The notes: generated by a model from the letters alone, not told the origin. Shown: positions 10,875 through 34,063, counted from the first letter of the stretch. The stretch: 64,000 bases of DNA from an uncultured Rhabdothermincola sp. (GCA_964530525.1 CAZHBH010000003.1:1002-65001), one strand, 5' to 3'. Numbers and translations: made by a program.

Positions 10875-10911
10875 ACCGCCGGGATCGTTGGCCGGCGTGG
10901 ACGGGTGCCGT

Positions 10912-11454: not shown

Positions 11455-11549
11455 GGCCTGCCTCTCAGGATCTGGGGTGTACGCCGGGGAGCGTAGCGAG
11501 CGTCGGCTCGGCTCCGGGAGGATCACCTCGCGGAGTTACCATCCGGCTC

Positions 11550-12968: not shown

Positions 12969-12982
12969 ACGAGGTGGGCCGG

Positions 12983-18943: not shown

Positions 18944-18991
18944 CCTGCCGGAGCCAGCCTCCTGGTCGGTCGTGGTCACGACGACACAATA

Positions 18992-19048
18992 CCTCAGCCA
19001 AGTGAAATACTCACTGTGCAAGTGAGGATTTTGAATAGCTGAGGATTT
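18992..19048 (-). promoter_or_regulatory. repeat-rich, AT-richer putative promoter/operator region of the element A operon
   Basis: Inverted repeat CCTCAGC (18992-98) / GCTGAGG (19038-44). Palindrome AGTGA-N5-TCACT (19001-15). Direct repeat TGAGGATTT at 19023-31 and 19040-48. Confidence 0.4.
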
Positions 19049-19180
19049 CTTACGCGGGCTCGCCTGCCCGCGCAACAGAGGGGCAACCTCACGAAGCCGG
19101 CGCACATCTCCTCCCACACCCCTCCCAATCAGGTCGGGAGATGGTGGAGTCTGGCGGTCACCAGCGGTCAGGCCGCTACG

Positions 19181-19271
19181 CTCTGACCAGGACGTTCGTC
19201 CTGGTCAGAGGGAACTTCCTTGGCGCCCCCGCCAGGATTCGAACCTGGGCACACGGTTTAGGAAACCGATG
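19181..19271 (-). repeat. DR2: central att-type copy of the tRNA-Arg 3' segment (48 nt + CCA) plus hairpin
   Basis: 19181..19259 is identical to DR1. 19224..19271 is identical to 33992..34039, the 3' 48 nt of tRNA-Arg reaching through the anticodon arm. Confidence 0.9.
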
Positions 19272-19327
19272 GTTTATTTGCTTAAAAATGCTGGTCACAG
19301 GGTTGATTGTTGCTCATGATCTTGATT

Positions 19328-19400: not shown

Positions 19401-20771
19401 ATGGCGAGACCCGTGCAGGATGTGCGCATCTGGTCGCTCCAGGACCGGCGCAAGCACGCCATGGCCAAGCGGCCCTGGCTCGTGCGATGGGTGGTCGACG
19501 GCCGGGAGCACAACCGCTCCTACCGCACCCGAGCCGAAGCCGACCGCTACCGGTCTCAGCTCCTCGTGGCCCAGAGCAAGGCCGAGCGCTTCGACCACGA
19601 CAGCGGCGAGCCGGTGTCGTGGACACCAGTCACGGGCGACAAGCAGCTCGTCGCCTGGGTGCGCCAGTGGCTCGCCGAGCAGTGGCCGGAGTGGCAGCCC
19701 CGCACGCGAGCCTCAGCAGTGGAGGCGCTGGCCCGGTTCGTGCCCTTGGTGTGCTCGGCGTCGGCCCCAGAACCGCCAGCAGAGATGCGTGCCTATCTGG
19801 TCCAGTCCCTGCGCCCCGGTGCCGAGGTCGACGGCGCTCACCCGTGCGAACGGTGGCTGGCACGTTGGAGCCCGGCGCTCGGCCACCTCGACCGAGAGAT
19901 GATGGCCAACGTCGAACAGCAGTTGGCCATCGGCGCCAGTGGACAGCCCCTCTCGGCCAACGTCTCCAACCGCTACCGGACCACGGCGCACGCTTGCATC
20001 AAGCGAGCGGTGGAACTGGATGTGTTGGCAGCAGACCCGTGGCCACCTCCGCCGAGTGGTCGTCGGCGGCGCAAGAGCGCTCGCAAGCGCCGCTCGGTCG
20101 ACATCCGGCTCTTGCCCGATCCGGCCACGATGGAAGCCGCTATCGCTGCCATGCGCTCGCACCAGCCGGGCAGTCGCACCTACGAGGTCATGACCGCCGT
20201 GGCCTACTACGCCGGGCTCCGACCCTCCGAGGTGGTGGCGTTGCGCCCGCGATCGCTGGACCTGCCCGAGGAGGGCTGGGGTCGCATTGAGGTGGTCGAA
20301 GCCGACGTCGACTGGGACGAACCCGGCGAACCCAAGACCGGCCAGCGCTCCGTACCGATCCCGCCCCAGCTCGTGGCCATCCTGCGGTCGTGGATCGAGG
20401 ATGTCGGCGTGGGCGACGACAATCTGCTGTTTCGCACCAGAGGCAACAAGCGTCCGACCCAATCGAACTGGGGGAGAGCCTTGAAGCGTGGTCTGGCCGC
20501 CGTGGAGCACGACCCGATCCGGGTCTACGACTGCCGCCACGCTGCGGCCACCACATGGCTACGAGCAGGAGTCCCGCTCGGCGAGGTAGCTCGCCGCCTC
20601 GGCCACAGCGTCGAGACCCTGGTCTCCACCTACGTCGGCGCTCTCGAAGGCGACGAAGCCATCGCCAACGACCGCATCGAACAGGCTCTGTCCCCAACCG
20701 CCGAACGGTCGGCGTCTGCTGGATCTCAGCGGAGGAGACAAGCTCGATCGTCATCTTTCTATGTGGCCTAG
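19401..20771 (+). CDS. int: tyrosine-type site-specific integrase
   Basis: 456-aa ORF. Catalytic-domain landmarks are YYAGLRPSEVVAL (Arg), VYDCRHAAATTWL (H-x-x-R region) and LGHSVETLVSTYVG (His...Tyr). A Shine-Dalgarno AAGGGGG lies upstream. The gene is adjacent to the att repeat. Confidence 0.9.
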   Translation: MARPVQDVRIWSLQDRRKHAMAKRPWLVRWVVDGREHNRSYRTRAEADRYRSQLLVAQSKAERFDHDSGEPVSWTPVTGDKQLVAWVRQWLAEQWPEWQPRTRASAVEALARFVPLVCSASAPEPPAEMRAYLVQSLRPGAEVDGAHPCERWLARWSPALGHLDREMMANVEQQLAIGASGQPLSANVSNRYRTTAHACIKRAVELDVLAADPWPPPPSGRRRRKSARKRRSVDIRLLPDPATMEAAIAAMRSHQPGSRTYEVMTAVAYYAGLRPSEVVALRPRSLDLPEEGWGRIEVVEADVDWDEPGEPKTGQRSVPIPPQLVAILRSWIEDVGVGDDNLLFRTRGNKRPTQSNWGRALKRGLAAVEHDPIRVYDCRHAAATTWLRAGVPLGEVARRLGHSVETLVSTYVGALEGDEAIANDRIEQALSPTAERSASAGSQRRRQARSSSFYVA

Positions 20772-20902: not shown

Positions 20903-22810
20903 TCAGGCGGCGATCTTCAGCGCCCGAGCGCCTGTAATGAGAGATTGGACGAGTTCAGGGACCTCTCCCTGCGCGTGGAGTGCTGCTTCTTGATAGGTCG
21001 CATGGTCCTTGCCGCTATATCCGAGACCGTCTTCTATTAGCGCCTCCTTCGCCTCTGCCCATGCTGGCCACATCTCCTCGAGGGCTTGTTCTAGGCCACC
21101 ATCGACGAATGTAAAGTTCGTAGCGACGCGACTGACGGGCCAGTCCAGTTCCGGGAGATTGAAAAAGCGTAGAAGTCTCCGATTCCAATCGATGGAGTCC
21201 TTGACGGAACCGGATAGCTTCTTTGCACGAACCTCGTCACCTCGGGACTCTACATCGGCCAATTCGTCCCGAAGGTGTGAATCGTTGTCCGCCACGAGAT
21301 ATACCGGGATGCCAATCTCGTCGAAGATTACGTAGGGCAAGAGGAGTCGTGTCTTGCCACCAGCCTCACCGATGAAGATGCCGTCCAACAGGAGTGGTAC
21401 AGATTCCTTGGTCGCGGCACCGGTCAAGACGGCGCGATCTGTGCTGCCCTCGACGAGAAGTACCACGTCAGCAAAGAATCCTTCTCCAAGCGCACCCAAG
21501 CAGACACCATCGAGTTGGCGCTGGATTGATTCTGGATCGATGAAAGTATCCAATCGTCGGACGACGTCGCCGACGCTCGAGCCCCGCACGATGACCCTCC
21601 CTTTGTTTCCAGACTGACGGGTCACGCGCCGAATCTGGTGAAACGACTTCGCTTCGATGAAGTATGGGCTGTGCGTCGCGTAGGTGACCTGGACACCCTT
21701 AGTTGCGTCCTCAGCGAGACCACGAAGCACAGCTGCGAACGATCTTGCTTGAAGTGGGTGCTGGTAGAGCTCGGGCTCTTCGATGGCTAGACACATGACT
21801 CCGTGGGTTGCCTCACGTCTCCCACGCTCAGCCAGCATCTTCAAGGCGGCGATCAGCAAGGCACGCTGAAATCCATGGCCCTGCCGCTCGACTCGCGTCT
21901 CAAGAGTGGAATCAAGAACCGCTACGTCAAATTGTACGCGCTGAGGCTTAAGTGGCTCTGACCGAGGAGTGACGGCCACGGCACGGCCCGTCGCGAACTC
22001 ACTGACTGCTGTCGTCAGCTCTGATGACAACTGGTCCAGTTGCTCCGACAGCAATCGGTTCTCGATCTCTGTCTGTGTTTTACCGAAGTTTTTGACTAGA
22101 TCTGCGATTTCCGCATCTACCTTCGTTCGATCGATTGCCTGCTCCAGGATCCGACCGATCACGGCGGTGCGTGAATCCGTCGTCTCCTCGGCAGCGCGGA
22201 GGTCGGCTGACACGAAGATGAAGTCGAAGAGCCCGGACATCAAGGCTTGGCCAGCGAAGCCGAAGAAATGGGACGTACTCTCGACGTCCGCGTCAGCGAG
22301 TTGATTCGGATGCTCCTGCTCCCACTCCGTCATCAGTTGGGACATGGCGGCATCGGTGGACCATGTAGGCAGCTCAAGTTCAGGCCTGTCAGCGCGAAGC
22401 GTTTGCCACAGACGCTTGCGTTCCGCCGCCGACCCGCCTGCGCGGACGGTGTCAAATCCCGCGAATGTCCGTCCGCGCCCGAAGATTTTGTCTTCGCCGT
22501 CGTGCCACCGTCTCCATAAGGTGACCGACTCGGCTGACGGAGGCGCGTACTTGCCCAAATGGCTCCGATCGTCGTCAGTAAGATGGTCGAACGTCACTTC
22601 GACCAGGACCACGCGCTCTGGATCGCGCTGGAAGACATCGTCCAAAGATAGAGACGAGCCCTTCGTTCCGTTGAAGAACCAGTCGAGTGCTCGGAGGATT
22701 GATGACTTCCCTGCACCGTTCGGACCTAGGAAGGTCGTGACTGCATCGAATCCTACCTCGATGTCCTCCAGGCCACGGAAGTTCTTGATGCGTAGCGAAG
22801 CGATCCTCAC
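20903..22810 (-). CDS. OLD-family nuclease (N-terminal ABC-type ATPase fused to C-terminal Toprim domain)
   Basis: IKNFRGLEDIEV...FLGPNGAGKSSILRAL is Walker A. QGHGFQRAL is signature-like. LAIEEPELYQHP is Walker B. YATHSP is the H-loop. The Toprim domain shows VVLLVEGSTDRAVL and VYLVADNDS. GTG start, preceded by GAGGGGGA. Confidence 0.85.
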   Translation of the reverse strand: MRIASLRIKNFRGLEDIEVGFDAVTTFLGPNGAGKSSILRALDWFFNGTKGSSLSLDDVFQRDPERVVLVEVTFDHLTDDDRSHLGKYAPPSAESVTLWRRWHDGEDKIFGRGRTFAGFDTVRAGGSAAERKRLWQTLRADRPELELPTWSTDAAMSQLMTEWEQEHPNQLADADVESTSHFFGFAGQALMSGLFDFIFVSADLRAAEETTDSRTAVIGRILEQAIDRTKVDAEIADLVKNFGKTQTEIENRLLSEQLDQLSSELTTAVSEFATGRAVAVTPRSEPLKPQRVQFDVAVLDSTLETRVERQGHGFQRALLIAALKMLAERGRREATHGVMCLAIEEPELYQHPLQARSFAAVLRGLAEDATKGVQVTYATHSPYFIEAKSFHQIRRVTRQSGNKGRVIVRGSSVGDVVRRLDTFIDPESIQRQLDGVCLGALGEGFFADVVLLVEGSTDRAVLTGAATKESVPLLLDGIFIGEAGGKTRLLLPYVIFDEIGIPVYLVADNDSHLRDELADVESRGDEVRAKKLSGSVKDSIDWNRRLLRFFNLPELDWPVSRVATNFTFVDGGLEQALEEMWPAWAEAKEALIEDGLGYSGKDHATYQEAALHAQGEVPELVQSLITGARALKIAA

Positions 22811-22832
22811 TCCATCCCCCTCTCGTCAGAAA

Positions 22833-22848
22833 ATCACACCAGTGTGAT
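22833..22848. promoter_or_regulatory. 7-2-7 inverted repeat (candidate operator) 23-38 nt upstream of the OLD gene start
   Basis: ATCACAC-CA-GTGTGAT inside the 149-bp spacer between the two nuclease genes. Confidence 0.3.
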
Positions 22849-22959
22849 CCGACAGCTCCGAACGTGCAACAGCTGGGGAAGATTCCAAGAGAAGGGGCAC
22901 TTCGGGACTGCCCGTACGTGCAGCGAGGAGGGTGACGCCCAGCTGGTGGAGGGCGGGAG

Positions 22960-24402
22960 TTAGAGATTCGATGCTGATGGGGGTTTACGAGCGTCGACAA
23001 GCGTACTCTTGAGATCGAGCCCGAGTTTATTGCCGAGTTCCCGCGTGCGCAGGGGCAGCGTCGTTCGTCGTTGACCTACGTCTGAGTTCCGCCGATGGCT
23101 TCGATATTGGATCGCGACGAATCGACCCACTGAACAACGGTCTGACTCAAGGTAGGAGGTCAGCTGATGTTCCAGCCCATTCCAGAACTTGCCATTGTGG
23201 AGTTTCTTAATCTCAAGCAGCGCACGGTTCTCATACCCACTGGAGAACTTGAAGTCGACTGGCCCGCGGCCAAGATCTACCTCGCGGTCGAGGACGATGT
23301 TGTGGGCGATGCAACGTGATTCAGCGAGAGCTCGGAAAAGGAGTTGAGCAGCTTCTTCATCCTTAGGGGTGCTATCATCATTGATCAGTCCATACCAGCC
23401 CCGTCGTTGTTCTACGAAGTGTTTGAAGTCCTTGATTAGCGAATCGATGAACGAGACGAAGGCTGGCTCATCTGTCACAGGAGCAAGGCTGAGTGGTGAT
23501 TCGGCAGCGTAGGCCTGTGCGTGGCGAAGCCAGTTGTAGATGCCCATGGGGTCCTGCTCGAGGTCATAGGGATCGGGGCTAATTCCCTCCCGCGCTCGGG
23601 TCCAGTTTTGGACCGCCTCAGGGTCGCGTCGTGCGAGATCGACGATGTCTTTTTTCCTCACATTGGATGAGATGTCGTAGTTGAGGTCAGCTCGGAGCTG
23701 TACAGCCTCCGAACTGGCCCAGAAGTCGTACGCATCGAGGCTGGGCAGCTTTCTGAGGAATCGCCTTGGCGTCAGGATCACGGGTAAGCCATTCTCCGGG
23801 TTGGTTGGCAACCTCACCTCGACAGGGTCCCAACGTAGGTATGTCGCATTGAACGCGCCTCGATCGATTCGATGCGGTTCCGTGGCAATCCCGTGCCGCG
23901 ACACCACTGTGATGGTGTACCTCGTGAACCTCTCGATGAGAACATTGCAGACGAGGTCGGAAATGCGGTCGCGCCCAATGCCTTCATTGAGAACCCCGAG
24001 GGTCTCGAAATGTGCAAGGTTCTCGATGCCTCTGTTGATCGAAAGCTCCATAGCTTCGCAGATACGCCGGGCATTGCCACGACCACTGCCAGATCCGCTG
24101 GTTCCGCTGTCAGTGAATCCGAGGCAGAACGGCCGTGGTTCGGGGAAGCGGAGAAGTTCCAGAGCCTTAGTCCGTTCCGGTGCGGAGGGTGTCTGTATCG
24201 TGTTCCCGACCATGTGGAACACGATGTTGAAGTAGGCAATCAGTTCAGCGTGAGCGCGGGCCCACAACTCCCCATCGTCCTTGAAGATTAGGAACGGATC
24301 TACGAACAACCGCGTGTCGGCACCGAGGATGGGGTCGAACCAGTCGTCGTCTTCTTCTATGAGTTCGATACCGAAGTAGTTTGAGAAGTAGTTTGCCGCC
24401 AT
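22960..24402 (-). CDS. hypothetical 480-aa protein with C-terminal PD-(D/E)xK nuclease-like domain
   Basis: ATG start, coding-like composition, low GC. The C-terminus reads DEEAAQLLFRALAE...DREVDLGRGPVDFKFSSGYENRALLEIKKL, which is the helix-E, D, ExK order of restriction-endonuclease-fold enzymes. I do not recognise the N-terminal ~350 aa. Confidence 0.6.
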   Translation of the reverse strand: MAANYFSNYFGIELIEEDDDWFDPILGADTRLFVDPFLIFKDDGELWARAHAELIAYFNIVFHMVGNTIQTPSAPERTKALELLRFPEPRPFCLGFTDSGTSGSGSGRGNARRICEAMELSINRGIENLAHFETLGVLNEGIGRDRISDLVCNVLIERFTRYTITVVSRHGIATEPHRIDRGAFNATYLRWDPVEVRLPTNPENGLPVILTPRRFLRKLPSLDAYDFWASSEAVQLRADLNYDISSNVRKKDIVDLARRDPEAVQNWTRAREGISPDPYDLEQDPMGIYNWLRHAQAYAAESPLSLAPVTDEPAFVSFIDSLIKDFKHFVEQRRGWYGLINDDSTPKDEEAAQLLFRALAESRCIAHNIVLDREVDLGRGPVDFKFSSGYENRALLEIKKLHNGKFWNGLEHQLTSYLESDRCSVGRFVAIQYRSHRRNSDVGQRRTTLPLRTRELGNKLGLDLKSTLVDARKPPSASNL

Positions 24403-24489
24403 CGACTGATCCTAGGTCTTTGGCTGCAATCATGAGGCTCATTGCGCGGGGATCGCTGGGACGGCGATGAGACTCACCACAGCTCACTC

Positions 24490-24720
24490 TCAGCGCGACG
24501 TGGTGTCGCGCGGTGATGGTGGCCAGGTTGGGTGGATGCGGGATTGGTTGACCCACTCGTCTATCTCGTCGGGGTCGAAGCGGATGAAGTGGCCAAGCTT
24601 GATGTAGGGGATGCGACGTTCGGCGATGAGGCGGCGGATGTAGCGGACTCGGACGCCGAGGCGTACAGCGAGCGAGTGGACGTCGAGGAGCTTGTCGTCG
24701 GGGTTCTGGGTGGTCGTCAT
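24490..24720 (-). CDS. xis: excisionase-family / AlpA-like HTH DNA-binding protein
   Basis: From the ATG at 24720: MTTTQNPDDKLLDVHSLAVRLGVRVRYIRRLIAERRIPYIKLGHFIRFDPDEIDEWV. This is the HTH_17 excisionase pattern (...IPyiKlG...rF....i..W). Confidence 0.75.
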   Translation of the reverse strand: MTTTQNPDDKLLDVHSLAVRLGVRVRYIRRLIAERRIPYIKLGHFIRFDPDEIDEWVNQSRIHPTWPPSPRDTTSR

Positions 24721-25044
24721 GAGGTTCCTTATTTGGTGTGGGCCATGGCCTCGCGGCCGTGGCACTCCGGTCCTGCCAGGAGAACAAGACGACGTCCTTG
24801 TTTCGGCACCTTCCAAGGCACCGGGATAGTCCCCGGTGGGCAGGGGGATTCCGATGAGAGGAGATCGAAGGTGCATCGGATCGATGGCTTTTGAGGCCGC
24901 TCGCGACCCCCGTGACCAGCGGTTGGGACGTCGACGAGGACGTGCACGGTGCCTCTACGGTGATATGTGGCATGACTCTCTAGGCCCCAGAGGGAACTTC
25001 CGCGTCGCGCAGGCTTCCGGGGTCGATCTAGCCTTCCAGACGCT

Positions 25045-25917
25045 GTGTCGGCGTGTTCCACCAACGTGAGGTCTAAACTCACTTTTGTGAAACGAGTTGA
25101 CTTTGAGGGCCTGTGGGATCGGTTCCTTGCCGAGGGGCGGGGAGTTGTCACAACCACCCAGCTCCGAGAGGAGACTGGGGCCAGCGCCGATGCCGTTCGG
25201 GCAGCCGCGGCCAACGCCGTGCGCAAGGGTCTTCTGTTCAGTCCCGCCAAGGGCCTCTACGTGCCCGTGCCCCCTAAGTACCGCAGTTGGGGCGTCATTC
25301 CTGCCGATCACTTCATCGACGCCATGATGAGCTACCTGGGCTGTGAGTACTACGTGGGCTTCCTCTCAGCTGCAGCGCACTGGGGGGCGTCGCATCAAGC
25401 GGTGCAGGAGTACCAGGTTGTCGTCGATCGCCACGTGCGCGACCGCGACATCGGGCGAGTGCGGATGCGGTTCCACCGCATCCGCCGCCTCGATGAACGC
25501 GAAACGGTTCGCATCGCAGGCACTGAAGCAATGCTGACCGTGGCGAGCCCCGAGCAGTGCGCTGTGGACCTGGTGGAGCACCCCTCTTGGGGTGGAGGGC
25601 TCTCCAACGTCGCCACGGTGCTTGCCGAGCTGCCCAACCTCGACGCCGTGAAGTTGTCCTCTCTCGCCGCCCGCCGTCCCCGGCCCCTGGCGCAACGGCT
25701 CGGGTGGCTCCTCGACAGCGCCGAAGTCGGCGTCGATCTCGAACCTCTGGCTCAGCTCGCTCGTTTGAGTACCCGGTCCACGCTGCTCGATTCCCGCCAG
25801 CCTCGTGGTGGTGAGCGCGACGAGCGCTGGGGTGTCATCGTGAACACCCGAGTCGACCCCGACACGTGGTCCTCGGGATGGGGCCTGCGAAAGTCCAGAC
25901 CGCTGGATTGCCCTTGA
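25045..25917 (+). CDS. AbiEi-family (COG5340-like) antitoxin/transcriptional regulator with no adjacent AbiEii
   Basis: N-terminal wHTH-like GVVTTTQLREETGASADAVRAAAANAVRKGLLFSPAKGLYVPVP. The middle block YYVGFLSAAAHWGASHQ is typical of AbiEi. The start is uncertain (GTG 25045 or GTG 25087). Confidence 0.65.
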   Translation: MSACSTNVRSKLTFVKRVDFEGLWDRFLAEGRGVVTTTQLREETGASADAVRAAAANAVRKGLLFSPAKGLYVPVPPKYRSWGVIPADHFIDAMMSYLGCEYYVGFLSAAAHWGASHQAVQEYQVVVDRHVRDRDIGRVRMRFHRIRRLDERETVRIAGTEAMLTVASPEQCAVDLVEHPSWGGGLSNVATVLAELPNLDAVKLSSLAARRPRPLAQRLGWLLDSAEVGVDLEPLAQLARLSTRSTLLDSRQPRGGERDERWGVIVNTRVDPDTWSSGWGLRKSRPLDCP

Positions 25918-25983
25918 AGTGAGTACGACGTATGATGTGACATATCCACGACATTGCAACCGGCTTTTCTGCGACGAGGATTC

Positions 25984-26319
25984 ATGACCACTCTGACCTC
26001 ACTACTTGACCACCTGTATGAAGGGGATGTGGTGGACACCGCGGATCTGGCGCGGGTCAGCGACACGAACCCACGGAGCGTGGCTCGTTGGAGGGCCGAA
26101 GCGGCTGCTCCGCGCCGGGACGCTGAGGAGCGACTGCTCGAGCTGCGCGCCGTCGTAGACCTGGCACGCAGGGTGATGAGAGATGACGCAGCCCGTCTCT
26201 GGATGCGGTCACCCAACCCCGATCTGGACTACGAGAAGCCGATCGATCTGGTTGCGGAAGGCCAGTACCAGCGAGTGATCGATCTTCTCCTCGCCTTGGC
26301 GGAGGGCGTCACCGCCTGA
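25984..26319 (+). CDS. DUF2384 (Xre/MbcA/ParS-type) antitoxin
   Basis: The C-terminal ARLWMRSPNPDLDYEKPIDLVAEGQYQRVIDLLLALAEGV is the classic DUF2384 block (W...pn..LgG..P.dl...g....v...L). The ATG at 25984 is preceded by GAGGA. The stop lies 1 nt before the RES gene. Confidence 0.75.
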   Translation: MTTLTSLLDHLYEGDVVDTADLARVSDTNPRSVARWRAEAAAPRRDAEERLLELRAVVDLARRVMRDDAARLWMRSPNPDLDYEKPIDLVAEGQYQRVIDLLLALAEGVTA

Positions 26320-26320
26320 G

Positions 26321-26857
26321 ATGCCGTCGTTCGACTCTCGAAAGATCGGACGGTTGGCGGGCACGGCGCTGTCCTCCGTCGGCTACCGAAACCAAGCCCC
26401 CGGATTCGATCCTCGCAGCGGTGAGGGGGCACGACGTCGTGGCGGTCGGTTCAACCCGCCTCACAGCTATCCGGTCCTGTACTTGTGTACGACTCGTCCC
26501 TGCGTCGCGGCCGAGCTCACACGGCAGGCTGCGCGACAGGGCCTCAGCGTCAGCGACCTCTTGCCCCGCGAGCTTTGGGAGATCAGCGCCCCGCTCGTGA
26601 AGGTGCTCGACCTGACCGACGTGACCACGCGCGACGCGCTTGATCTGTCGACATCCGACCTCCTCCGCGACGACCACCGCTTCACCCAGGAGATCGGCGA
26701 AGCTGCCCATGAACATGGCTTCCAGGGCATCCGCTCCCCATCTGCCACTGGTGTTGATGATGTCCTCGCCGTCCTTCCCGAGAATCTCGCCGGGGTCGTG
26801 CTTGAGGTTGAACGAGTCGGAGAATGGCGAACCATCGAGGACTTCGAAGCTCTCTAG
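26321..26857 (+). CDS. RES-domain toxin (MbcT/ParT-like NAD+-targeting enzyme family)
   Basis: GGRFNPP (R), CVAAELTR (E) and GIRSPSATG (S) appear in the expected order and spacing. It sits directly downstream of the DUF2384 gene. Confidence 0.8.
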   Translation: MPSFDSRKIGRLAGTALSSVGYRNQAPGFDPRSGEGARRRGGRFNPPHSYPVLYLCTTRPCVAAELTRQAARQGLSVSDLLPRELWEISAPLVKVLDLTDVTTRDALDLSTSDLLRDDHRFTQEIGEAAHEHGFQGIRSPSATGVDDVLAVLPENLAGVVLEVERVGEWRTIEDFEAL

Positions 26858-27069
26858 TCGCTCTAGCCAGCCCTTGTTATCAGCGCTCAGTGCTTTGTGC
26901 CTGATGTGAGGTCTCCGTGTCACTCATCCCTGAGACAGCGTATATAACCCTTAGTACCCAGTACTACTCGTCCAAGCAATGTGGCCACTATTCACCCATA
27001 TAACTCTCCATTTTCCGTTGTATAAAAGGAGAAAGGACGGCACATATGCACTCTCCGAGAGTGCTATGT

Positions 27070-28505
27070 GGGACTGTCCGACTGATTGTGTAAGTGGCGT
27101 GATCTGAGGGTCCGCGGCCTAGTGCCGTGGGCCAAGGAGGATCGCTGCGATGACAACCACTACTTCTACATCGATGACACCGGCTCCCGGCAAGGGTCTG
27201 CGCCTGCCCCGTATGGTGACCAAGGTGGGCGACGAGGAAGCAATGGGCGCCTGGGCCGATGAGCTCGTCGAGCGGGCTCGAGCCGAAGGCGTGGAGCTCA
27301 CCGGCGAGGACGGGCTGTTGACGGCTCTGGTTCGCCAGGTGCTCCAGACGGGCCTGGAGATCGAGATGACCGATCACCTCGGCTACGAACGCCACGACCC
27401 CGCTGGGCGAGGGTCGGGCAACTCCCGCAACGGGGCCTATCCCAAGACCCTCATCACCGAGATCGGAAAGGTCGACCTCGCTGTTCCGAGAGATCGCAAC
27501 GGCTCCTTCGAGCCGGCCACTGTGCCCAAGGGCCAGCGCCGCCTCGACGGGCTGACGGGTAACGTCACCTCGCTCTACGCGAAGGGCCTCAGCACCGGTG
27601 ACATCCAGGCGCACCTGGCGGAGATCTACGACTGCGACATCTCCCGAGACACCATTTCGCGCATCACCGATGCGGTGCTCGAAGACCTCGTCGCCTGGCA
27701 GAACCGGCCGCTGGATCGCATCCCGGTGATCTTGATCGACGCCATCGTGGTGAAGATCCGAGACGGCGCGGTGGCCAACCGCCCGATCTACGTGGCCATG
27801 GGCATCAACCTCGACGGTGAGCGAGACGTGCTGGGACTCTGGGTCGGGCCCACCGGCGGCGAGGGAGCCAAGTTCTGGCTCAACGTGCTCACAGAGCTGC
27901 GCAACCGTGGCATCCACGACACCTTCATCGTGTGCTGTGACGGCCTCAAGGGCCTCCCCGAGTCCATCCGGGCCACCTGGCCGTTGGCCGAGGTCCAGCT
28001 CTGCGTTGTTCACCTCGTGCGCTCTTCTATCCGTTACACCTCCAAGAAGCACTGGGGCCAGGTGTGCCGCGAGATGCGAGAGATCTACACCGCTCCGACG
28101 CTTGCTGCGGCAGAGGCCCGCTTCGGCGAGTTCTCCGACACCTGGCGCGAGAGATACCCCGCCATGGTGGAGACCTGGGAGCGGTCCTGGGCCGAGTTCG
28201 TCCCGTTCTTGGACTACCCGCCCGAGCTGCGCCAGGTCGTCTACACGACCAACGCCATCGAGAGTCTCAACGCCCGGTTCCGAAAGGCCGTGCGACATCG
28301 GGGCCACTTCCCAACTGAGCAGGCGGCCTTGAAGGTCCTCTACCTCGTGGCGATCGAGAGGAGGAAGAACCGCTCCAACCCCACCGGGAGGATCAACGGC
28401 TGGAAGCCGATCCTGAACGCACTGACCATCCACTACGGCGACCGCATCACCGCAGCTGCCTGACCATGACCGTCGCGTCGCTTACACAGAGAATCGGACA
28501 GTCCC
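27070..28505 (+). mobile_element. IS256-family insertion sequence (1436 bp)
   Basis: Terminal inverted repeats are GGGACTGTCCGACTGATTGTGTAAG (27070-94) and the reverse complement of 28481-505, GGGACTGTCCGATTCTCTGTGTAAG. They match at 21 of 25 positions. A single mutator-type transposase ORF lies inside. I could not find a flanking 8-9 bp target duplication. Confidence 0.8.
27150..28463 (+). CDS. tnp: IS256-family (mutator-type) transposase
   Basis: 437-aa ORF with LLTALVRQVLQTGLEIEMTDHLGYERHD...NSRNGAYPKTL...VPRDRNGSFEP...IDAIVVKIRDG...TTNAIESLN. These are canonical IS256 transposase blocks. Confidence 0.9.
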   Translation: MTTTTSTSMTPAPGKGLRLPRMVTKVGDEEAMGAWADELVERARAEGVELTGEDGLLTALVRQVLQTGLEIEMTDHLGYERHDPAGRGSGNSRNGAYPKTLITEIGKVDLAVPRDRNGSFEPATVPKGQRRLDGLTGNVTSLYAKGLSTGDIQAHLAEIYDCDISRDTISRITDAVLEDLVAWQNRPLDRIPVILIDAIVVKIRDGAVANRPIYVAMGINLDGERDVLGLWVGPTGGEGAKFWLNVLTELRNRGIHDTFIVCCDGLKGLPESIRATWPLAEVQLCVVHLVRSSIRYTSKKHWGQVCREMREIYTAPTLAAAEARFGEFSDTWRERYPAMVETWERSWAEFVPFLDYPPELRQVVYTTNAIESLNARFRKAVRHRGHFPTEQAALKVLYLVAIERRKNRSNPTGRINGWKPILNALTIHYGDRITAAA

Positions 28506-28639
28506 GAGTATGGAAGTGGAATCGCCTGGTATTGATCTCTAGCTCCGATCTTCTCTCATCACGGAGCTGGCGAATGGTGCCCCAGAGCCGCCGATAGGGG
28601 GATGCACTCGTCTCCCAGCAGGTGGGCGCGGGTCGGCCC

Positions 28640-31600
28640 CTACCAGCCCTCGGGATGCGGGAGACCGAGGCGGATGGCCTGTTCGACAACGACTCTGATG
28701 TGCGCTGGGTCACTCCCCACTCGAAGCCGCGGCATCAGTTCGTGCAGCTGGTACCCGCCCCACCACGGCTGCTCGGTGCTGCGCATCAGGTGGCCGATCA
28801 CCCTTGCGCACGCGTCCGGTGAGTCGTCGACGCGTCGTTCCAGGTGGCGTAGGACGTCGTCGTGCTCTCGGAAGCGGCCGGGCCGGCTGGTCACGAGGTG
28901 CGCTCCTGACTCAAAGGAGTTGCCCAGGAACGGGATCCACCCCACCATCGCTGTGGCCTCCTCGAATGAGAGCTGAGTCGGAATACTGGTCAGGCGGTTG
29001 CTCCAGTACGTATGCATCCACCGGGTCCACTGGTGTTCGACCGCTTCGCCGGGCAGTTTGTCCAGGATGTTGGCGACCTTGTCGGCGAACGTGGAGCGTT
29101 CGTCGTTGCTCAGGTCCACGATGACTCCTGGCAGCCACTCCAGGGGGTCACGGTCGCTGGTGAGGGCGATCCCGGCGAGGTGGCCGAGGATCGACCCTTG
29201 GTGCTTGTCATCGAGCTCACCTAGGTGACCGACGGCCTGGAGGTAGTGATCCATGAGCCCGGCGTCGAGCATCTGATCGTTCCAACGGCCCCAGCCGGTG
29301 AAGCTGTTCCAGGCTCGGCGAGCCCGAGGTGCATCGGACCAGTCGAGGAGCGGCATCACGTTCTGGATCGTCCAGTCCGGGTCGGCTGCAAACAGGAAGT
29401 GCAGCCGACTGGCGCAGATTACTTCAGCCATCTGCGTTCGGGACTCGCCCGAGGGGCCGCCGAGCATTGCCTCGAAGGCTTCGCGGTGCTCCTCTGTCAG
29501 GCCGGACCATGTCTCTTCATCTGCTCGCCAGTCGTGTTGGATGACGTGCAGCCAGAACTCAGCGAGGTTTCCCCCCGGGTGGTTGATCGCACGGGTGAGC
29601 CAGTCGATCTCGCCGAACACGACCTCTTCGTCGGGGATCAGCTGCCAGAGCTCTCGGGCCAGTTGCCGGGCTCCGGGCACGGCTGTCCAATCGGTGGGAT
29701 ATCCCTCGGATCGACCTCCGGCTGAGAGCATCCGAGCGAGATCCCGGGTGAGGGTCGTGTGGTCGAGAGCAGCGATGCGTCTAAGGACGTCTGCAGCCGC
29801 TTTGGCATCGAGTTCAGCGCGGCTCCATCCTTTGATGACAGCTTGTGTGACTTCGGCGTCTGGTGGATCGGCGTTGAGGAGCCGGTAGCCGTCATTCGGT
29901 TCGGTCTGAACCGCCGAGGTGATGAGGGTCAAGGAATCCTCCCAGGTGGGTACGCCCTCCCAATGGCCAACGCCCCTGGTCTCCTGCAGCGTCGAGAGCA
30001 GCGATGAAGGATCAGCTTCGAGCTGTTCATGGAGGTTCTCCACAGACATGGGGGGTCTTGAGGGAACAAACCCACTCTCCATCGAATGGGTCAGATCGGG
30101 GTTTGTTCGTGCTATCCAGGTCGGATCGACTGCGTGGGCCTCCGCCAGTGCCGCTGTGATGCGAGGGTGGTCAGGGCGGGACCGGTCCATCCAGACAAGT
30201 GCGTTGAACCGTTCGTAGGGCCGGTGCTCCGACTCCTCCTCGTCTGGTTCGAACACGGCACTGATGAGCGCCTCGATCGCCTCATCTGAGGCCCCTGGGA
30301 GAGCTGCAGCGATCAGGCGGAACGCCTCGTGGCGCACCCGGTGGTTGAAAAGCCAGCCGGAGCGCACCACCCAGTCGAGCTTGGCCGAGGAGTCGACGTC
30401 GCTCCGGTGGATCCAGCCATGGATAGCCAGGCGCTGGAGGATCTGCGAGTCTGCTGTGGCCCAGGACTGCAGATACCCGATTGCGATCGGATCAGAGGCA
30501 TTGAGCAGAGCTTCAATCCCATCGCGTGCCGCGTCGATCAGTACATCGATCGGCTCGGTGTATTCGTCCTGAGGATGTGGCTCAATGGCGCTCCGGCCGA
30601 ACGAGATTACATCAAAGCTGAGACTGCCTGGGTGAGCGGCGACCTGGAGATCACTCACTCGTCGTAGGTGCCGGTCGGCCATTGCGACGACCGCATGGAC
30701 AACCTCGGAGAGGTTCGGCTTGAGGATCTGAGCCCACGCCTCCTGGAGCCAGTGATCGTCGCCACGCAGGTGAATACCGAGGCGTGGCGGGCCCAACCCG
30801 AACGAGGATGTCAGCCCCGCGGTGGGTTCGGTCAAATGATCGAACAGCAGCAGAATCTGCTCCCGGTCATCTGGCCAGGTCGAGGCATTGAGCGCGAAAT
30901 CGAACCAGTTGCGAGTTGAGGTAGGCGCATCACGGAGCAGAAGCACGAGCCAGATTCCCAGCCAACCGGGCCGAGGTGCTCCACGACGGTGAAGTTGAAA
31001 CCCGATCTCGTCGCAGATCTCAGGTCCGAGGTAGCCACCGCTCTCGCTTACAAGGCCGAGCGCACGCTCTGTGTGCTCCTCCACCATTACAAAGAACTCA
31101 ACGAACCACCTGGCAAGGGCTCGTCCAGCTTCCGAGGGCGGCGATCCTCGGGCGAGCAACATCCTGAACACGGGCTGCGTAGCCGCCCAGTCGAGCCATT
31201 CTGGTGCTCGTGCGACCTTGGTGAAGAGCCCGACCCGGTCGGGATCAGCAATCAGCTCCTCAAGGTAAGAGGTGTCCTCAGGGATCTCCGAAGGCGGAGA
31301 CGCGACCAACTCGGCGACCCGCTGGCGATGGTCGAGCAGCCCCATCCCTGCGATCTCCGCCCAGCGGGCAAGCACATCTCCGAGCGCGGCGTGCGAGCCT
31401 GCAACAACCTCGTACCCAATAGGCCGAAGGCCAAGGTCCATCCAATCCCGCGCCCCGGGCGTGTCAGTGAGTATGTATCGGTGGCCATCAGGTCCGAGTG
31501 CTCGCGCCAGGTAACGCATGACCACGTCGCCATGGCTGTAGCCGATGAACAGCACACTGAACTTGGCGAACATCCGCTCCAAGAACCGCGCCGCCCAAGC

Positions 31601-32128
31601 ATCACGCAGGTACGCCTTGCCGAAGTCACCGTCGGTCACGACAAGGCGCTCTGGGGGCTGGCAAAGGGTACCGTGCAGGTACACCAGCCCGGTGAAGTCG
31701 TTGCCCACCGGTAGTGCCGGTGCTGCGTACTCCTCGACCTCGACTCCTCTGGCATGGATCACCGATGTCAGATGCCGATCGAAGTTGGTCGTGACGATCC
31801 TTAGATGTGGCGCTGTCAGCCCAAGATCCACGACTGCTTCGTGGAGGCGGTTGTGTTGCGACCGTGGAGCTCTGAGGTGCTCCGCAACACGGAGGTGAAC
31901 ATCGACACCTCGATCCTTGATACGCCCGAGCACGACGTCCGGGTGAAGGAGGTCGCCGTCATGCAGGGCGTAGCGTGTTTCATCGGCGATCGATCTCGTC
32001 AGCCGTTGGAAATCAGGAAGGTCAGACGGGGTGTCTCGGGAGGCACCTGCGCCAACGAACAGAACAAGGCGACCTGCTCGGTGCGCGTCGACCAGCTCCG
32101 AGGGAACCTCAACGCCACCGGCCCACAC
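28640..32128 (-). CDS. 1162-aa SIR2-domain protein with long helical C-terminal region (SIR2_2 + DUF4020-like; DSR-like single-gene defence candidate)
   Basis: The N-terminal ~230 aa read RLVLFVGAGASRD, IVTTNFDRHL, LVYLHGTL and VLFIGYSHGD, which is the SIR2_2 family with catalytic Asn/His positions present. The rest is about 900 aa rich in Trp, Leu and Asp with no motif I recognise. GTG start with no obvious SD. Confidence 0.8.
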   Translation of the reverse strand: MWAGGVEVPSELVDAHRAGRLVLFVGAGASRDTPSDLPDFQRLTRSIADETRYALHDGDLLHPDVVLGRIKDRGVDVHLRVAEHLRAPRSQHNRLHEAVVDLGLTAPHLRIVTTNFDRHLTSVIHARGVEVEEYAAPALPVGNDFTGLVYLHGTLCQPPERLVVTDGDFGKAYLRDAWAARFLERMFAKFSVLFIGYSHGDVVMRYLARALGPDGHRYILTDTPGARDWMDLGLRPIGYEVVAGSHAALGDVLARWAEIAGMGLLDHRQRVAELVASPPSEIPEDTSYLEELIADPDRVGLFTKVARAPEWLDWAATQPVFRMLLARGSPPSEAGRALARWFVEFFVMVEEHTERALGLVSESGGYLGPEICDEIGFQLHRRGAPRPGWLGIWLVLLLRDAPTSTRNWFDFALNASTWPDDREQILLLFDHLTEPTAGLTSSFGLGPPRLGIHLRGDDHWLQEAWAQILKPNLSEVVHAVVAMADRHLRRVSDLQVAAHPGSLSFDVISFGRSAIEPHPQDEYTEPIDVLIDAARDGIEALLNASDPIAIGYLQSWATADSQILQRLAIHGWIHRSDVDSSAKLDWVVRSGWLFNHRVRHEAFRLIAAALPGASDEAIEALISAVFEPDEEESEHRPYERFNALVWMDRSRPDHPRITAALAEAHAVDPTWIARTNPDLTHSMESGFVPSRPPMSVENLHEQLEADPSSLLSTLQETRGVGHWEGVPTWEDSLTLITSAVQTEPNDGYRLLNADPPDAEVTQAVIKGWSRAELDAKAAADVLRRIAALDHTTLTRDLARMLSAGGRSEGYPTDWTAVPGARQLARELWQLIPDEEVVFGEIDWLTRAINHPGGNLAEFWLHVIQHDWRADEETWSGLTEEHREAFEAMLGGPSGESRTQMAEVICASRLHFLFAADPDWTIQNVMPLLDWSDAPRARRAWNSFTGWGRWNDQMLDAGLMDHYLQAVGHLGELDDKHQGSILGHLAGIALTSDRDPLEWLPGVIVDLSNDERSTFADKVANILDKLPGEAVEHQWTRWMHTYWSNRLTSIPTQLSFEEATAMVGWIPFLGNSFESGAHLVTSRPGRFREHDDVLRHLERRVDDSPDACARVIGHLMRSTEQPWWGGYQLHELMPRLRVGSDPAHIRVVVEQAIRLGLPHPEGW

Positions 32129-33891: not shown

Positions 33892-33946
33892 TGAACGAGG
33901 GGAAATCGAGGTCAGAAGGGGTGAACGGCGGTTACCAGCGGCGAAG

Positions 33947-33976
33947 CTCTGACCAGGGTGTTTATCCTGGTCAGAG
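33947..33976 (-). terminator. hairpin immediately 3' of tRNA-Arg
   Basis: CTCTGACCAGG-GTGTTTAT-CCTGGTCAGAG. The 11-bp stems are the same as in DR1 and DR2 but the loop differs. It lies 15 nt downstream of the tRNA 3' end on the minus strand. Confidence 0.5.
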
Positions 33977-33991
33977 CCAATCTCTGCACTG

Positions 33992-34063
33992 CGCCCCCGC
34001 CAGGATTCGAACCTGGGCACACGGTTTAGGAAACCGATGCTCTATCCCCTGAGCTACGAGGGC
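33992..34063 (-). tRNA. tRNA-Arg (anticodon CCU)
   Basis: The reverse complement folds by hand. Acceptor GCCCTCG/CGGGGGC, D arm GCTC-AGGGGATA-GAGC, anticodon loop TTCCTAA, T arm CCAGG-TTCGAAT-CCTGG, discriminator G. Length 72 nt. CCA is not encoded; the next bases are CAG. Confidence 0.9.

What the first reader, a model, noticed from the sequence alone, without database searches (positions are those of the whole stretch)
20903..24402. Candidate undescribed two-nuclease module: an unknown 480-aa PD-(D/E)xK-like protein upstream of an OLD-family ATPase-Toprim nuclease
Two co-directional minus-strand genes occupy the lowest-GC patch of the tRNA-Arg island, directly downstream of the excisionase-like gene.

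The distal gene (20903..22810) is an intact OLD-family protein. It has Walker A GPNGAGKSS, a QGHGFQRAL signature, Walker B LAIEEPELYQHP, H-loop ATHSP, and Toprim LLVEGSTD and LVADNDS.

The proximal gene (22960..24402) has an N-terminal ~350 aa that I cannot assign to any family. Its C-terminus has the order of a restriction-endonuclease fold: helix with DEEAAQLLF, then GPVDFKF, then ALLEIKKL, i.e. E...D...ExK.

The OLD contexts I know of are:
- solitary (P2 Old type);
- paired with a UvrD-like helicase (Gabija GajA/GajB);
- linked to a retron;
- split as ATPase plus DUF4435 (PARIS AriA/AriB).

No helicase, reverse transcriptase or split Toprim gene is adjacent here. The neighbour is instead a second, different nuclease fold. 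A sensor/ATPase plus two effector nuclease domains on a mobile element is a plausible anti-phage or anti-plasmid system that may not be catalogued.
Basis: partly seen in the sequence, partly recalled or inferred. Interest (0 to 1): 0.85.

Follow-up and report, generated by a model that had tools for sequence, protein, structure and literature searches.

The report
Two unlinked nuclease genes, one island
Two neighbouring nuclease genes on a mobile island look like separate single-gene defence genes that merely sit side by side, not a new two-part system; the less-known one belongs to a widespread, uncharacterised family that is worth testing alone.

Summary
Both ORFs and all quoted motifs are present exactly as described. 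The distal gene (20903-22810, minus strand) is an intact OLD-family ATPase-Toprim nuclease. Its best solved relative is the Class 1 Thermus OLD (6P74, E=5e-24), and no helicase, reverse transcriptase or split Toprim gene lies nearby. The proximal 480-aa gene belongs to a large family (3,376 clusters at 50% identity) that a newer Pfam release lists as DUF8370+DUF8371. Its C-terminal 176 aa has invariant E...D...ExK...QxxxY residues, a confident alpha-beta-beta-beta-alpha-beta model, and only weak fold hits, most of them to restriction-type nucleases. The N-terminal domain matches nothing solved.

- A full OLD gene lies within 8 kb of only 1 of 80 homologue loci, and that one is a Gabija GajA.
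- None of the closest relatives of either gene carries the other.
- 1 of 80 OLD-relative loci has even a partial family match.
- DNA similarity to the closest relatives stops at each gene's borders.

The neighbours of the 480-aa family are varied defence genes. In 5 of 78 loci the gene sits in the toxin position behind a RosmerTA-type antitoxin. Best reading: two independent single-gene systems in a 14.8-kb tRNA-Arg defence island. Interest is modest.

The parts
20903..22810 (-). OLD-family nuclease, Class 1-like (single polypeptide, N-terminal ABC ATPase plus C-terminal Toprim), 635 aa
   Evidence: ORF. Pfam AAA_15 8e-38 and OLD-like_TOPRIM 4e-13. PADLOC best match 'Old' 3e-52. Best PDB relative is the Class 1 TsOLD 6P74, E=5e-24, whereas GajA structures match only the P-loop at about 2e-4.
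22811..22959 (-). 149-bp intergenic spacer. It holds a 7-bp inverted repeat (ATCACAC-TG-GTGTGAT, 22848-22833) followed by TTTTCT, then the OLD ribosome-binding site GAGAGGGGGA (22824-22815).
   Evidence: Read directly. The consensus scan found no promoter or terminator here, so co-transcription can be neither shown nor excluded.
23491..24402 (-). N-terminal domain (aa 1-304, by order DUF8370) of the 480-aa protein. Orphan fold with invariant motifs DDWFDP..DT.LFVDPF, GYT..GT.G.G.G, HFE and GIG.DRISD.
   Evidence: Alignment A1. PADLOC PDC-M36A 2.6e-28 over aa 6-276. No PDB or BFVD fold match to this part.
22960..23490 (-). C-terminal PD-(D/E)xK-type nuclease domain (aa 305-480, by order DUF8371) plus stop codon. 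Putative catalytic residues are E349, D383, E397 and K399, followed by Q413 and Y417.
   Evidence: These residues are invariant in 25 homologues. The domain model has pLDDT 90.8 and pTM 0.88 with alpha-beta-beta-beta-alpha-beta order. Foldseek top hits are PD-(D/E)xK enzymes, but all have E>=0.04, or E>=0.0014 in BFVD.
24490..24876 (-). Excisionase/AlpA-like HTH_17 gene (longest ORF form; the HTH is at aa 66-112)
   Evidence: Pfam HTH_17 6.5e-9
19401..20771 (+). Tyrosine integrase of the island
   Evidence: Pfam Phage_integrase 3.5e-14
19223..19277 (.). Distal att copy (a duplicate of the 3' part of tRNA-Arg)
   Evidence: 55-nt direct repeat, 96% identical to 33991-34045
33991..34063 (-). tRNA-Arg(CCT) gene containing the proximal att copy (33991-34045)
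   Evidence: ARAGORN; repeat
25045..32128 (.). Other island cargo: AbiEi antitoxin (25045-25917 +), Xre/MbcA antitoxin plus RES toxin (25954-26857 +), Mutator/IS256-type transposase (27150-28463 +), and a Dsr1-like SIR2_2-DUF4020 protein (28640-32128 -)
   Evidence: Pfam; PADLOC Dsr1 3.7e-55

Best explanation
The 3.5-kb segment holds two independent single-gene nuclease systems. They lie next to each other in the cargo region of a ~14.8-kb integrative element inserted at tRNA-Arg, which is a small defence island.

Gene 1 is a Class 1-type OLD nuclease. By analogy with P2 Old, Vc OLD and E. coli YbjD (inferred), it acts alone. ATP binding and hydrolysis by the ABC ATPase would gate a two-metal Toprim nuclease that nicks or degrades replicating phage DNA.

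Gene 2 is a member of the uncharacterised DUF8370-DUF8371 family. It has an N-terminal domain of unknown fold fused to a C-terminal PD-(D/E)xK nuclease. The most likely mechanism (inferred) is a stand-alone sensor-effector. The N-terminal domain would hold the nuclease inactive, or target it, until an infection- or stress-related cue arrives. The nuclease would then cut DNA, either directly restricting the invader or killing the cell. Its toxicity potential is suggested by relatives that sit in the toxin slot behind RosmerTA-type HTH-Zn-peptidase antitoxin or regulator genes.

Shown here: gene integrity, domain content, motif conservation, island structure, and lack of conserved linkage. Inferred: nuclease activity, anti-phage role, and gating by the N-terminal domain.
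For: Lack of linkage:
- tblastn with the window OLD finds a neighbour in 1 of 80 homologue loci.
- An HMM built from 59 OLD relatives finds a full ATPase+Toprim protein only in L001. It also finds two Toprim-less ATPases, identified as Septu PtuA and a retron-I-B/PARIS-type ATPase.
- The L001 protein is a GajA (1e-214) followed by a second co-directional 575-aa gene. That gene is presumed to be GajB but was not scanned.
- No neighbour family recurs in more than 8 of 80 loci.
- The closest relatives of the 480-aa gene (86%, 69%, 69%, 68%) have other genes downstream. DNA identity to L082 (84%) covers only window 22962-24418.
- The closest OLD relatives (85-61%) lack the family. DNA identity to L086 (78%) covers exactly 20903-22810.
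- 1 of 80 metagenomic OLD loci has a family hit.

Defence-island setting:
- Homologue neighbours include type I and type III R-M, GmrSD, SNF2, Schlafen-type helicase, YobI/Tmn NTPase, CHAT, RT and C5-methylases.
- The window island also carries a Dsr1-like SIR2 protein, RES-Xre and AbiEi.
- Plasmid copies are solitary 'hypothetical proteins' among TA and SIR2 genes.

OLD acting alone:
- Class 1 is defined as a single-gene system (PMC10568477, PMC12392090).
- Single-gene OLDs give anti-phage phenotypes (PMC12392090, PMC13261556).
- The best solved relative is the Class 1 TsOLD.

480-aa nuclease:
- Invariant E349, D383, E397-x-K399, Q413 and Y417.
- Confident domain model with canonical topology.
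- Nuclease-dominated fold hits.

Toxin slot:
- In 5 of 78 loci an HTH+Peptidase_M78 (RmrA/CapP-like) gene lies immediately upstream and co-directional, overlapping by 4 bp or separated by 18 bp.
Against: - The two genes are co-directional and only 149 bp apart, with no detectable terminator between them.
- They share an almost identical GC3 (0.643 and 0.644) that is lower than every other island gene. They may therefore have arrived together and may be co-transcribed.
- One OLD-side locus (L114) pairs a same-clade OLD, in convergent orientation, with a protein sharing the N-terminal domain.
- Absence of conserved linkage does not prove absence of functional interplay in this particular island.
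- The PD-(D/E)xK assignment rests on motifs and topology. No fold or profile hit reaches significance.
- No experimental datum exists for any member of the DUF8370/DUF8371 family.
Confidence: 0.78

Rival explanations
1. One reading: the 480-aa PD-(D/E)xK protein and the OLD nuclease form one co-transcribed two-gene anti-phage or anti-plasmid system, in which the OLD ATPase senses and two different nuclease domains act as effectors.
For: The genes are co-directional and 149 bp apart, with no terminator-like site between them. GC3 is identical at 0.643/0.644 and distinct from the rest of the island. L114 shows a same-clade OLD next to a PDC-M36A-type relative.
Against: Linkage is absent in both directions: 1 of 80, 0 of 3, 0 of 4 and 1 of 80. 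The single full-OLD case is a GajA followed by another gene. Homology to the closest relatives ends at each gene's borders. Class 1 OLDs have been reported to work alone. In L114 the genes are convergent and the partner lacks the nuclease domain match.
Confidence: 0.07
2. The 480-aa protein is primarily an addiction or toxin module, or a solitary modification-dependent (type IV-like) restriction enzyme, that stabilises or protects the mobile element. It would not be an infection-triggered sensor-effector. OLD remains an unrelated neighbour.
For: In 5 of 78 loci it occupies the toxin position behind an RmrA-type antitoxin. It is found on 22 plasmids, 10 of them conjugative, among TA genes, and on no phage record. 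The architecture, an N-terminal unknown domain plus a C-terminal PD-(D/E)xK, resembles type IV enzymes, and BFVD hits include an Mrr-domain protein.
Against: In the window and in most loci there is no adjacent antitoxin. The upstream gene here is only an HTH_17 Xis-like protein. No known modified-base reader fold was detected in the N-terminal domain. The neighbours are mainly anti-phage systems.
Confidence: 0.12
3. The 480-aa protein is not a nuclease. The E/D/ExK pattern sits on a restriction-endonuclease-like fold used only for binding, or the N-terminal domain is the real enzyme.
For: No fold or profile match reaches significance. The N-terminal domain has at least as many invariant acidic and glycine motifs as the C-terminal domain.
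Against: All four canonical catalytic positions, plus the QxxxY positions, are invariant across phyla at about 50% overall identity. Topology and residue placement are canonical. Inactive PD-(D/E)xK domains usually lose these residues (general knowledge).
Confidence: 0.03

Closest known systems
Class 1 OLD family nucleases (P2 Old, Thermus scotoductus OLD 6P74, Vibrio cholerae Vc OLD, E. coli YbjD)
   Same: [quoted passage not shown] All catalytic motifs are present. There is no helicase, RT or split-Toprim partner. The best solved relative is TsOLD (E=5e-24) and the best PADLOC profile is 'Old'.
   Different: It is only distantly related to the characterised members. It matches the 'Old' profile at 3e-52 in two stretches, and TsOLD over aa 284-531 only. 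It belongs to a ~630-aa clade common in Actinomycetota. Unlike the review's description of Class 1, it sits inside a defence island.
Gabija (GajA/GajB, Class 2 OLD)
   Same: The OLD domain architecture. Many GajA profiles hit at 1e-15 to 4e-30.
   Different: No UvrD-like helicase gene is adjacent. The flanking genes are the integrase (convergent) and the 480-aa gene. GajA structures match only the P-loop. A true GajA scores 1e-214 on its own profile.
PADLOC phage-defence candidate PDC-M36 (protein A)
   Same: The N-terminal ~270 aa of the 480-aa protein match profile PDLC04597 at 2.6e-28. This is a bioinformatic candidate without experimental support; the 'PDC' label is defined in PMC11514479.
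   Different: Only profile positions 8-266 of 457 are matched, so the C-terminal nuclease domain is not part of that profile. A better PDC-M36A member (L114, 1e-45) shares only the N-terminal domain (30% over 212 aa). What PDC-M36B is could not be established.
RosmerTA (RmrT toxin / RmrA HTH-Zn-peptidase antitoxin) and CapH/CapP-type regulated defence genes
   Same: In 5 of 78 homologue loci the family member lies directly behind a fused HTH+Peptidase_M78 gene (RmrA profiles up to 4e-105, CapP 6e-17), with a 4-bp overlap or an 18-bp gap. That is the toxin or effector position.
   Different: The window copy has no such partner. The described RmrT is a 'toxin of unknown function', and its homology to this family was not tested.
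Solitary PD-(D/E)xK enzymes with the RecB/Cas4-like QxxxY motif, and type IV restriction enzymes (Mrr-like)
   Same: E...D...ExK followed by Q...Y on the next helix. The core is alpha-beta-beta-beta-alpha-beta. The weak fold hits go to EcoO109I, PspGI, EcoRV, EndoMS/NucS, the DdmD nuclease domain, Card1/Can2, a Cas4-family ACE1 and an Mrr-domain protein.
   Different: There is no significant sequence or structure match to any of them, no Cas4-type cysteine cluster was looked for, and the N-terminal domain is unlike their partner domains.

Membership tests
OLD family, Class 1 | N-terminal ABC ATPase and C-terminal Toprim in one polypeptide | tested here: met
   Pfam AAA_15 aa 1-385 (8e-38) and OLD-like_TOPRIM aa 445-510 (4e-13)
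OLD family, Class 1 | Intact catalytic motifs (Walker A Lys, signature, Walker B, H-loop, Toprim Glu and DxD) | tested here: met
   GPNGAGKSS, QGHGFQRAL, LAIEEPELYQHP, ATHSP, LLVEGSTD and LVADNDS are read in the translation
OLD family, Class 1 | Single-gene context: no UvrD-like helicase, no RT/ncRNA, ATPase and Toprim not split (definition in PMC10568477 and PMC12392090) | tested here: met
   The neighbours are the integrase and the DUF8370/71 gene. The large island ORFs scanned against Pfam (a 177-aa ORF at 32916-33449 gave no match; a 180-aa ORF at 32257-32799 was not scanned) are AbiEi, Xre, RES, transposase and SIR2. A retron ncRNA was not searched for.
OLD family, Class 1 | Closer to Class 1 than to Class 2 solved structures | tested here: met
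   6P74 TsOLD E=5e-24 against GajA entries at about 2e-4, P-loop only
OLD family, Class 1 | Lacks the Class 2 helical insert in Toprim | not tested
   No structure-based alignment of the Toprim region was made
OLD family, Class 1 | ATPase and nuclease activity; anti-phage phenotype when expressed alone | not testable with these tools
   Requires experiments
Gabija (Class 2 OLD) | Adjacent gajB (UvrD/PcrA/Rep-like helicase) | tested here: not met
   No helicase domain in any scanned island ORF
Retron-associated OLD (Class 3) | Adjacent reverse transcriptase and ncRNA | tested here: not met
   No RVT domain in the neighbours. NCBIfam retron Eco8 effector scores 46.6 bits against a cutoff of 250. 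The ncRNA was not searched.
PARIS (Class 4 OLD, AriA/AriB) | ATPase (AriA) and DUF4435 Toprim (AriB) as separate adjacent genes | tested here: not met
   The domains are fused in one 635-aa protein. The AriA profile matches only the ATPase part.
PD-(D/E)xK nuclease superfamily (C-terminal domain of the 480-aa protein) | Conserved acidic/Lys catalytic signature D...(D/E)xK with an upstream helix Glu | tested here: met
   E349, D383, E397 and K399 are invariant in 25 sequences at about 50% identity and in the 20-sequence domain alignment
PD-(D/E)xK nuclease superfamily (C-terminal domain of the 480-aa protein) | alpha-beta-beta-beta-alpha-beta core with the signature residues on the N-terminal helix (Glu), at the start of the second core strand (Asp) and on the third core strand (ExK) | tested here: met
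   Domain model pLDDT 90.8. Elements are H45-62, E66-68, E80-84, E88-96, H102-116 and E121-128. E45 lies on the helix, D79 just before the second strand, and E93/K95 on the third strand.
PD-(D/E)xK nuclease superfamily (C-terminal domain of the 480-aa protein) | Significant structural or profile similarity to a known member | tested here: inconclusive
   Foldseek PDB best E=0.04-0.08 (EcoO109I, DdmD, PspGI, EndoMS). In BFVD a 'Restriction endonuclease' hit has E=0.015, prob 1.00. Pfam and PDB sequence profiles give nothing significant.
Pfam DUF8370 + DUF8371 | Matches both Pfam models | tested here: met
   Precomputed PF28123 and PF28130 on the identical protein P0001 and on all 120 listed homologues. 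The local Pfam copy lacks these models.
PADLOC candidate PDC-M36 | Full-length match to PDC-M36A | tested here: not met
   Only aa 6-276 match positions 8-266 of the 457-position profile
PADLOC candidate PDC-M36 | Presence of the partner gene PDC-M36B | tested here: inconclusive
   No PDC-M36B profile appears in any visible hit list for OLD, its fragments or the homologue neighbours. Lists are truncated at 25 rows, and the identity of PDC-M36B is unknown to me.
RosmerTA-type toxin-antitoxin | Adjacent HTH + Zn-peptidase (RmrA) antitoxin gene | tested here: not met
   The window's upstream gene is HTH_17 only. The feature is met in 5 of 78 homologue loci.

The most novel reading that the evidence does not exclude
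DUF8370-DUF8371 proteins are a new, widespread single-gene defence or toxin family. An N-terminal domain of a so far unseen fold, carrying invariant acidic and glycine-rich motifs, would act as a new sensor or second enzymatic activity that gates a PD-(D/E)xK nuclease. In this particular island the gene may additionally have been acquired together with, and act in synergy with, the neighbouring Class 1 OLD.
Probability: 0.35. Interest if true: 0.55.

Novelty: new member of a known kind. Interest (0 to 1): 0.3.

Why it matters
As a two-gene system the finding does not hold up, so it does not add a fifth OLD context. Two things remain useful.

First, it is a clean example of an actinobacterial Class 1-type OLD on a tRNA-Arg integrative element. 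Class 1 is an OLD class with few characterised anti-phage members.

Second, it points to the DUF8370-DUF8371 family. The family has 3,376 clusters at 50% identity, spans many phyla, and occurs on plasmids and islands but not in phage records. It has no literature. It is a strong candidate for a stand-alone nuclease effector whose N-terminal domain has no known fold. Its occasional placement behind RosmerTA/CapP-type regulators gives a ready experimental handle, through toxicity and antitoxin rescue.

Tried and rejected
1. Conserved OLD linkage: tested by tblastn, BLAST clustering of neighbours, Pfam and PADLOC scans of the immediate neighbours and an OLD HMM over +/-8 kb. Rejected.

2. Linkage limited to close relatives: contexts of P0002, P0003, P0004 and P0006 and of OLD relatives P0122, P0124, P0125 and P0128. 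Rejected. The P0003 contig ends 181 bp after the gene, so it is uninformative.

3. The pair equals PADLOC PDC-M36: only the N-terminal domain matches PDC-M36A. PDC-M36B was never seen, even with OLD fragments chosen to shorten the hit lists. Not supported, though not fully excludable.

4. Sequence-profile assignment of the C-terminal domain: Pfam at E<=5 on 20 domain sequences and a PDB profile search. Only noise was found (SfsA 0.083, DUF2887 0.034, Schlafen-12 0.31).

5. Fold assignment of the N-terminal domain: no hit covers it in PDB or BFVD.

6. Phage origin: no tblastn hit in 50,697 phage records.

7. Literature: no paper mentions PF28123, PF28130, DUF8370, DUF8371 or PDC-M36.

8. Source organism: the exact-sequence look-ups gave no name or record.

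9. A promoter or terminator in the spacer: the consensus scan found none. Only a weak AT-rich inverted repeat was seen by eye.

Full report
OBSERVATION. The first is 20903..22810 (-), 635 aa, GTG start preceded by GAGAGGGGGA. The second is 22960..24402 (-), 480 aa, ATG start. They are co-directional and 149 bp apart. All quoted motifs can be read in the translations. The segment is the GC minimum of the window at 0.56-0.58, against about 0.69 in the flanks. Upstream lies an HTH_17 excisionase-like ORF (24490..24876, 6.5e-9), and a tyrosine integrase lies at 19401..20771. A 55-nt direct repeat (19223-19277 and 33991-34045) duplicates the 3' part of tRNA-Arg(CCT). It delimits a ~14.8-kb integrative element.

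GENE 1, OLD. Pfam gives AAA_15 (aa 1-385, 8e-38) and OLD-like_TOPRIM (aa 445-510, 4e-13). The best PADLOC profile is 'Old' (3e-52), ahead of AriA (ATPase part only) and many GajA profiles. Against solved structures, the Class 1 Thermus scotoductus OLD 6P74 is by far the best hit (5e-24, covering aa 284-531). GajA entries match only the first 75 residues at about 2e-4. The protein belongs to a well-populated ~630-aa clade annotated 'ATP-dependent nuclease' in Streptomyces, Kitasatospora, Actinomadura and others. OLD classes are defined by gene context: 1 is a single gene, 2 has a UvrD-like helicase, 3 is in a retron, and 4 has a split ATPase and Toprim (PMC10568477, PMC12392090). The scanned island ORFs include no helicase or reverse transcriptase, and the Toprim is not split. 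The gene therefore fits Class 1. Single-gene OLDs have been reported to give anti-phage phenotypes on their own: P2 Old, Vc OLD and E. coli YbjD. No partner is needed.

GENE 2, the 480-aa protein. The local Pfam copy finds nothing. The identical database protein and all listed homologues carry PF28123 and PF28130, which are named DUF8370 and DUF8371. The family is large. More than 860 hits came from the word-indexed search, and 369 loci from the one-genome-per-species collection. An exhaustive profile search found 3,376 representatives at 50% identity, of which 758 have E<=1e-30. Almost all are about 475 aa and match end to end. Members occur in Actinomycetota, Acidobacteriota, Bacteroidota, Cyanobacteria, Pseudomonadota, Bacillota and candidate phyla. 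They occur on 22 plasmids and on none of 50,697 phage records. Every annotation is 'hypothetical protein', and no paper mentions the DUFs.

So are D372, E374, K400, Q413, Y417, S420 and D421. A domain-only AlphaFold model (aa 305-480) is confident, with pLDDT 90.8 and pTM 0.88. It shows helix / three strands / helix / strand. The Glu lies on the first helix, the Asp at the start of the second strand, the ExK on the third strand, and Q...Y on the following helix. This is the canonical PD-(D/E)xK layout with a RecB/Cas4-like QxxxY.

Foldseek gives no significant hit. Its top ranks are nonetheless dominated by this superfamily: EcoO109I, the DdmD nuclease domain, PspGI, EndoMS/NucS, Card1/Can2, EcoRV, Mus81, a Cas4-family ACE1, PaqCI and BstYI in PDB. 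In BFVD the named hits are 'Restriction endonuclease', 'PD-(D/E)XK nuclease' and 'Mrr domain'. Sequence profiles (Pfam, PDB) give nothing usable. I take the nuclease fold as well supported by motif and topology, and not proven by homology.

The N-terminal ~300 aa have no fold match at all. They carry striking invariant motifs: DDWFDP..DT.LFVDPF, GYT..GT.G.G.G, HFE and GIG.DRISD. This domain, and only this domain, matches PADLOC's candidate PDC-M36A (2.6e-28, profile positions 8-266 of 457). 'PDC' marks unvalidated phage-defence candidates (PMC11514479).

IS IT A MODULE? I fetched 80 genomic loci of homologues with +/-8 kb of flank.
- tblastn with the window OLD finds a neighbour in one locus, L001.
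- Pfam scans of the 75 downstream and 76 upstream neighbours find AAA_15 in two.
- An HMM built from 59 OLD relatives, searched over all ORFs in the flanks, finds one full ATPase+Toprim protein, again in L001. It also finds two Toprim-less ATPases, which are a Septu PtuA and a retron-I-B/PARIS-type ATPase.
- The L001 protein matches a GajA profile at 1e-214 and is followed by a second co-directional 575-aa gene. I presume that gene is GajB but did not scan it. On that reading it is an ordinary Gabija system next door.
- No neighbour family recurs in more than 8 of 80 loci.

The closest relatives tell the same story. The 86%-identical gene (L082) is followed by the start of an HmaA-type SNF2 helicase. 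The 68-69% relatives are followed by unrelated genes. DNA similarity between the window and L082 (84%) spans only 22962-24418, which is just that gene.

The reciprocal test agrees. The four closest OLD relatives (85, 66, 61 and 61%) have no DUF8370/71 gene, and DNA similarity to L086 (78%) spans exactly 20903-22810. Among 80 further OLD loci, one (L114) has a family hit. That hit is a convergent 476-aa PDC-M36A-type protein sharing only the N-terminal domain, at 30% over 212 aa. Linkage is therefore not conserved at any evolutionary distance, and each gene behaves as its own cassette.

WHAT THE NEIGHBOURHOODS SAY. Neighbours of the family are type I R-M subunits, type III and GmrSD enzymes, SNF2 and Schlafen-type helicases, YobI/Tmn NTPases, CHAT, RT and C5-methylases. 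That is classic defence-island content. The window island itself also carries a Dsr1-like SIR2-DUF4020 protein, an Xre/MbcA-RES pair, an AbiEi gene and an IS256-type transposase. Two annotated plasmid contexts show a lone 'hypothetical protein' among TA modules, an integrase, and SIR2 and DUF3427 genes.

The only tight, repeated arrangement is in Microbacteriaceae and Micrococcaceae. In 5 of 78 loci a fused HTH+Peptidase_M78 gene lies immediately upstream and co-directional, overlapping by 4 bp or 18 bp away. This gene matches RmrA profiles up to 4e-105 and CapP at 6e-17. RosmerTA is described as a Zn-peptidase antitoxin with a toxin of unknown function (bioRxiv 10.1101/2022.05.11.491447). The family can therefore occupy a toxin or effector slot, which fits a potentially self-harmful nuclease.

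MECHANISM (inferred). OLD: an ATP-gated two-metal Toprim nuclease that acts alone on replicating invader DNA, as in the characterised Class 1 members. The 480-aa protein: a stand-alone sensor-effector whose N-terminal domain restrains or directs a PD-(D/E)xK nuclease until a cue arrives. It would be either abortive or directly restrictive. Rivals are a plain toxin or addiction function, or a type IV-like restriction enzyme.

The genes are close and co-directional, and no terminator is detectable between them. They share GC3 of 0.643/0.644, below every other island gene at 0.70-0.85. They may thus have arrived together and may be co-transcribed. This does not amount to evidence of a joint mechanism, and I give the module reading about 7%.

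VERDICT. Novelty: a new member of known kinds, namely a Class 1-type OLD and a member of a Pfam-listed DUF family related to a PADLOC candidate. Interest is 0.3. The residual value lies in the uncharacterised DUF8370-DUF8371 family itself.

Noticed in passing
window 28640-32128 (-): A 1,162-aa SIR2_2 + DUF4020 protein matching PADLOC Dsr1 (3.7e-55 over the N-terminal ~290 aa). It is probably a third single-gene defence system on the same island.
   Followed up: partly
window 25954-26319 (+) and 26321-26857 (+): An Xre/MbcA/ParS-type antitoxin followed, 1 bp later, by a RES-domain toxin. This is a complete TA pair in the island cargo.
   Followed up: partly
window 25045-25917 (+): An AbiEi antitoxin gene (AbiEi_1 1.9e-26) with no AbiEii toxin gene next to it. 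It may be an orphan or a remnant.
   Followed up: no
window 27150-28463 (+): A Mutator-family (IS256-like) transposase (7e-121) inserted in the middle of the island cargo.
   Followed up: no
window 19172-19210 and 33938-33976: A second direct repeat (39 nt, 82% identical) containing a hairpin lies next to each of the two att copies. The duplicated segment therefore extends beyond the tRNA 3' end.
   Followed up: no
window 34638-34715: A tandem hexamer array (GTCCGA)n about 600 bp beyond the tRNA-Arg gene, outside the island.
   Followed up: no
window 22848-22827 (minus strand): A 7-bp inverted repeat ATCACAC-TG-GTGTGAT followed by TTTTCT, a few bases upstream of the OLD ribosome-binding site. 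It could be an operator or a weak terminator between the two genes.
   Followed up: no
window 20903-24402: The OLD and 480-aa genes have nearly identical GC3 (0.643 and 0.644), lower than all other island genes (0.70-0.85). This suggests a shared history even though the closest relatives of each gene lack the other.
   Followed up: partly
L088 5115-7914: A 61%-identical OLD gene starts 17 bp after a SMODS (CBASS-type cyclase) gene. This may be a cyclase + OLD pairing that I did not pursue.
   Followed up: no
L087 426-3560: A 66%-identical OLD gene is followed, 22 bp later, by an RNase_T/BRCT exonuclease-like gene.
   Followed up: no
L029, L033, L040 (about 9458-13171): In three Microbacteriaceae genomes the DUF8370/71 homologue overlaps by 4 bp a 1,234-aa gene. 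The three genes share length and position, and YobI-ATPase was found in three downstream neighbours. Only the L029 gene was scanned individually, giving PADLOC Tmn at 2e-47. This may be a lineage-specific operon.
   Followed up: partly
L114 1038-4610: A same-clade OLD gene lies convergent, 260 bp away, with a 476-aa protein that is a better PDC-M36A match (1e-45). That protein shares only the N-terminal domain with the window protein.
   Followed up: partly
window 17137-19117 (-): Two overlapping ORFs lie just outside the island. One is 312 aa with no Pfam match. The other is 383 aa with weak IclR/MarR-type HTH hits. Their function is unknown.
   Followed up: no
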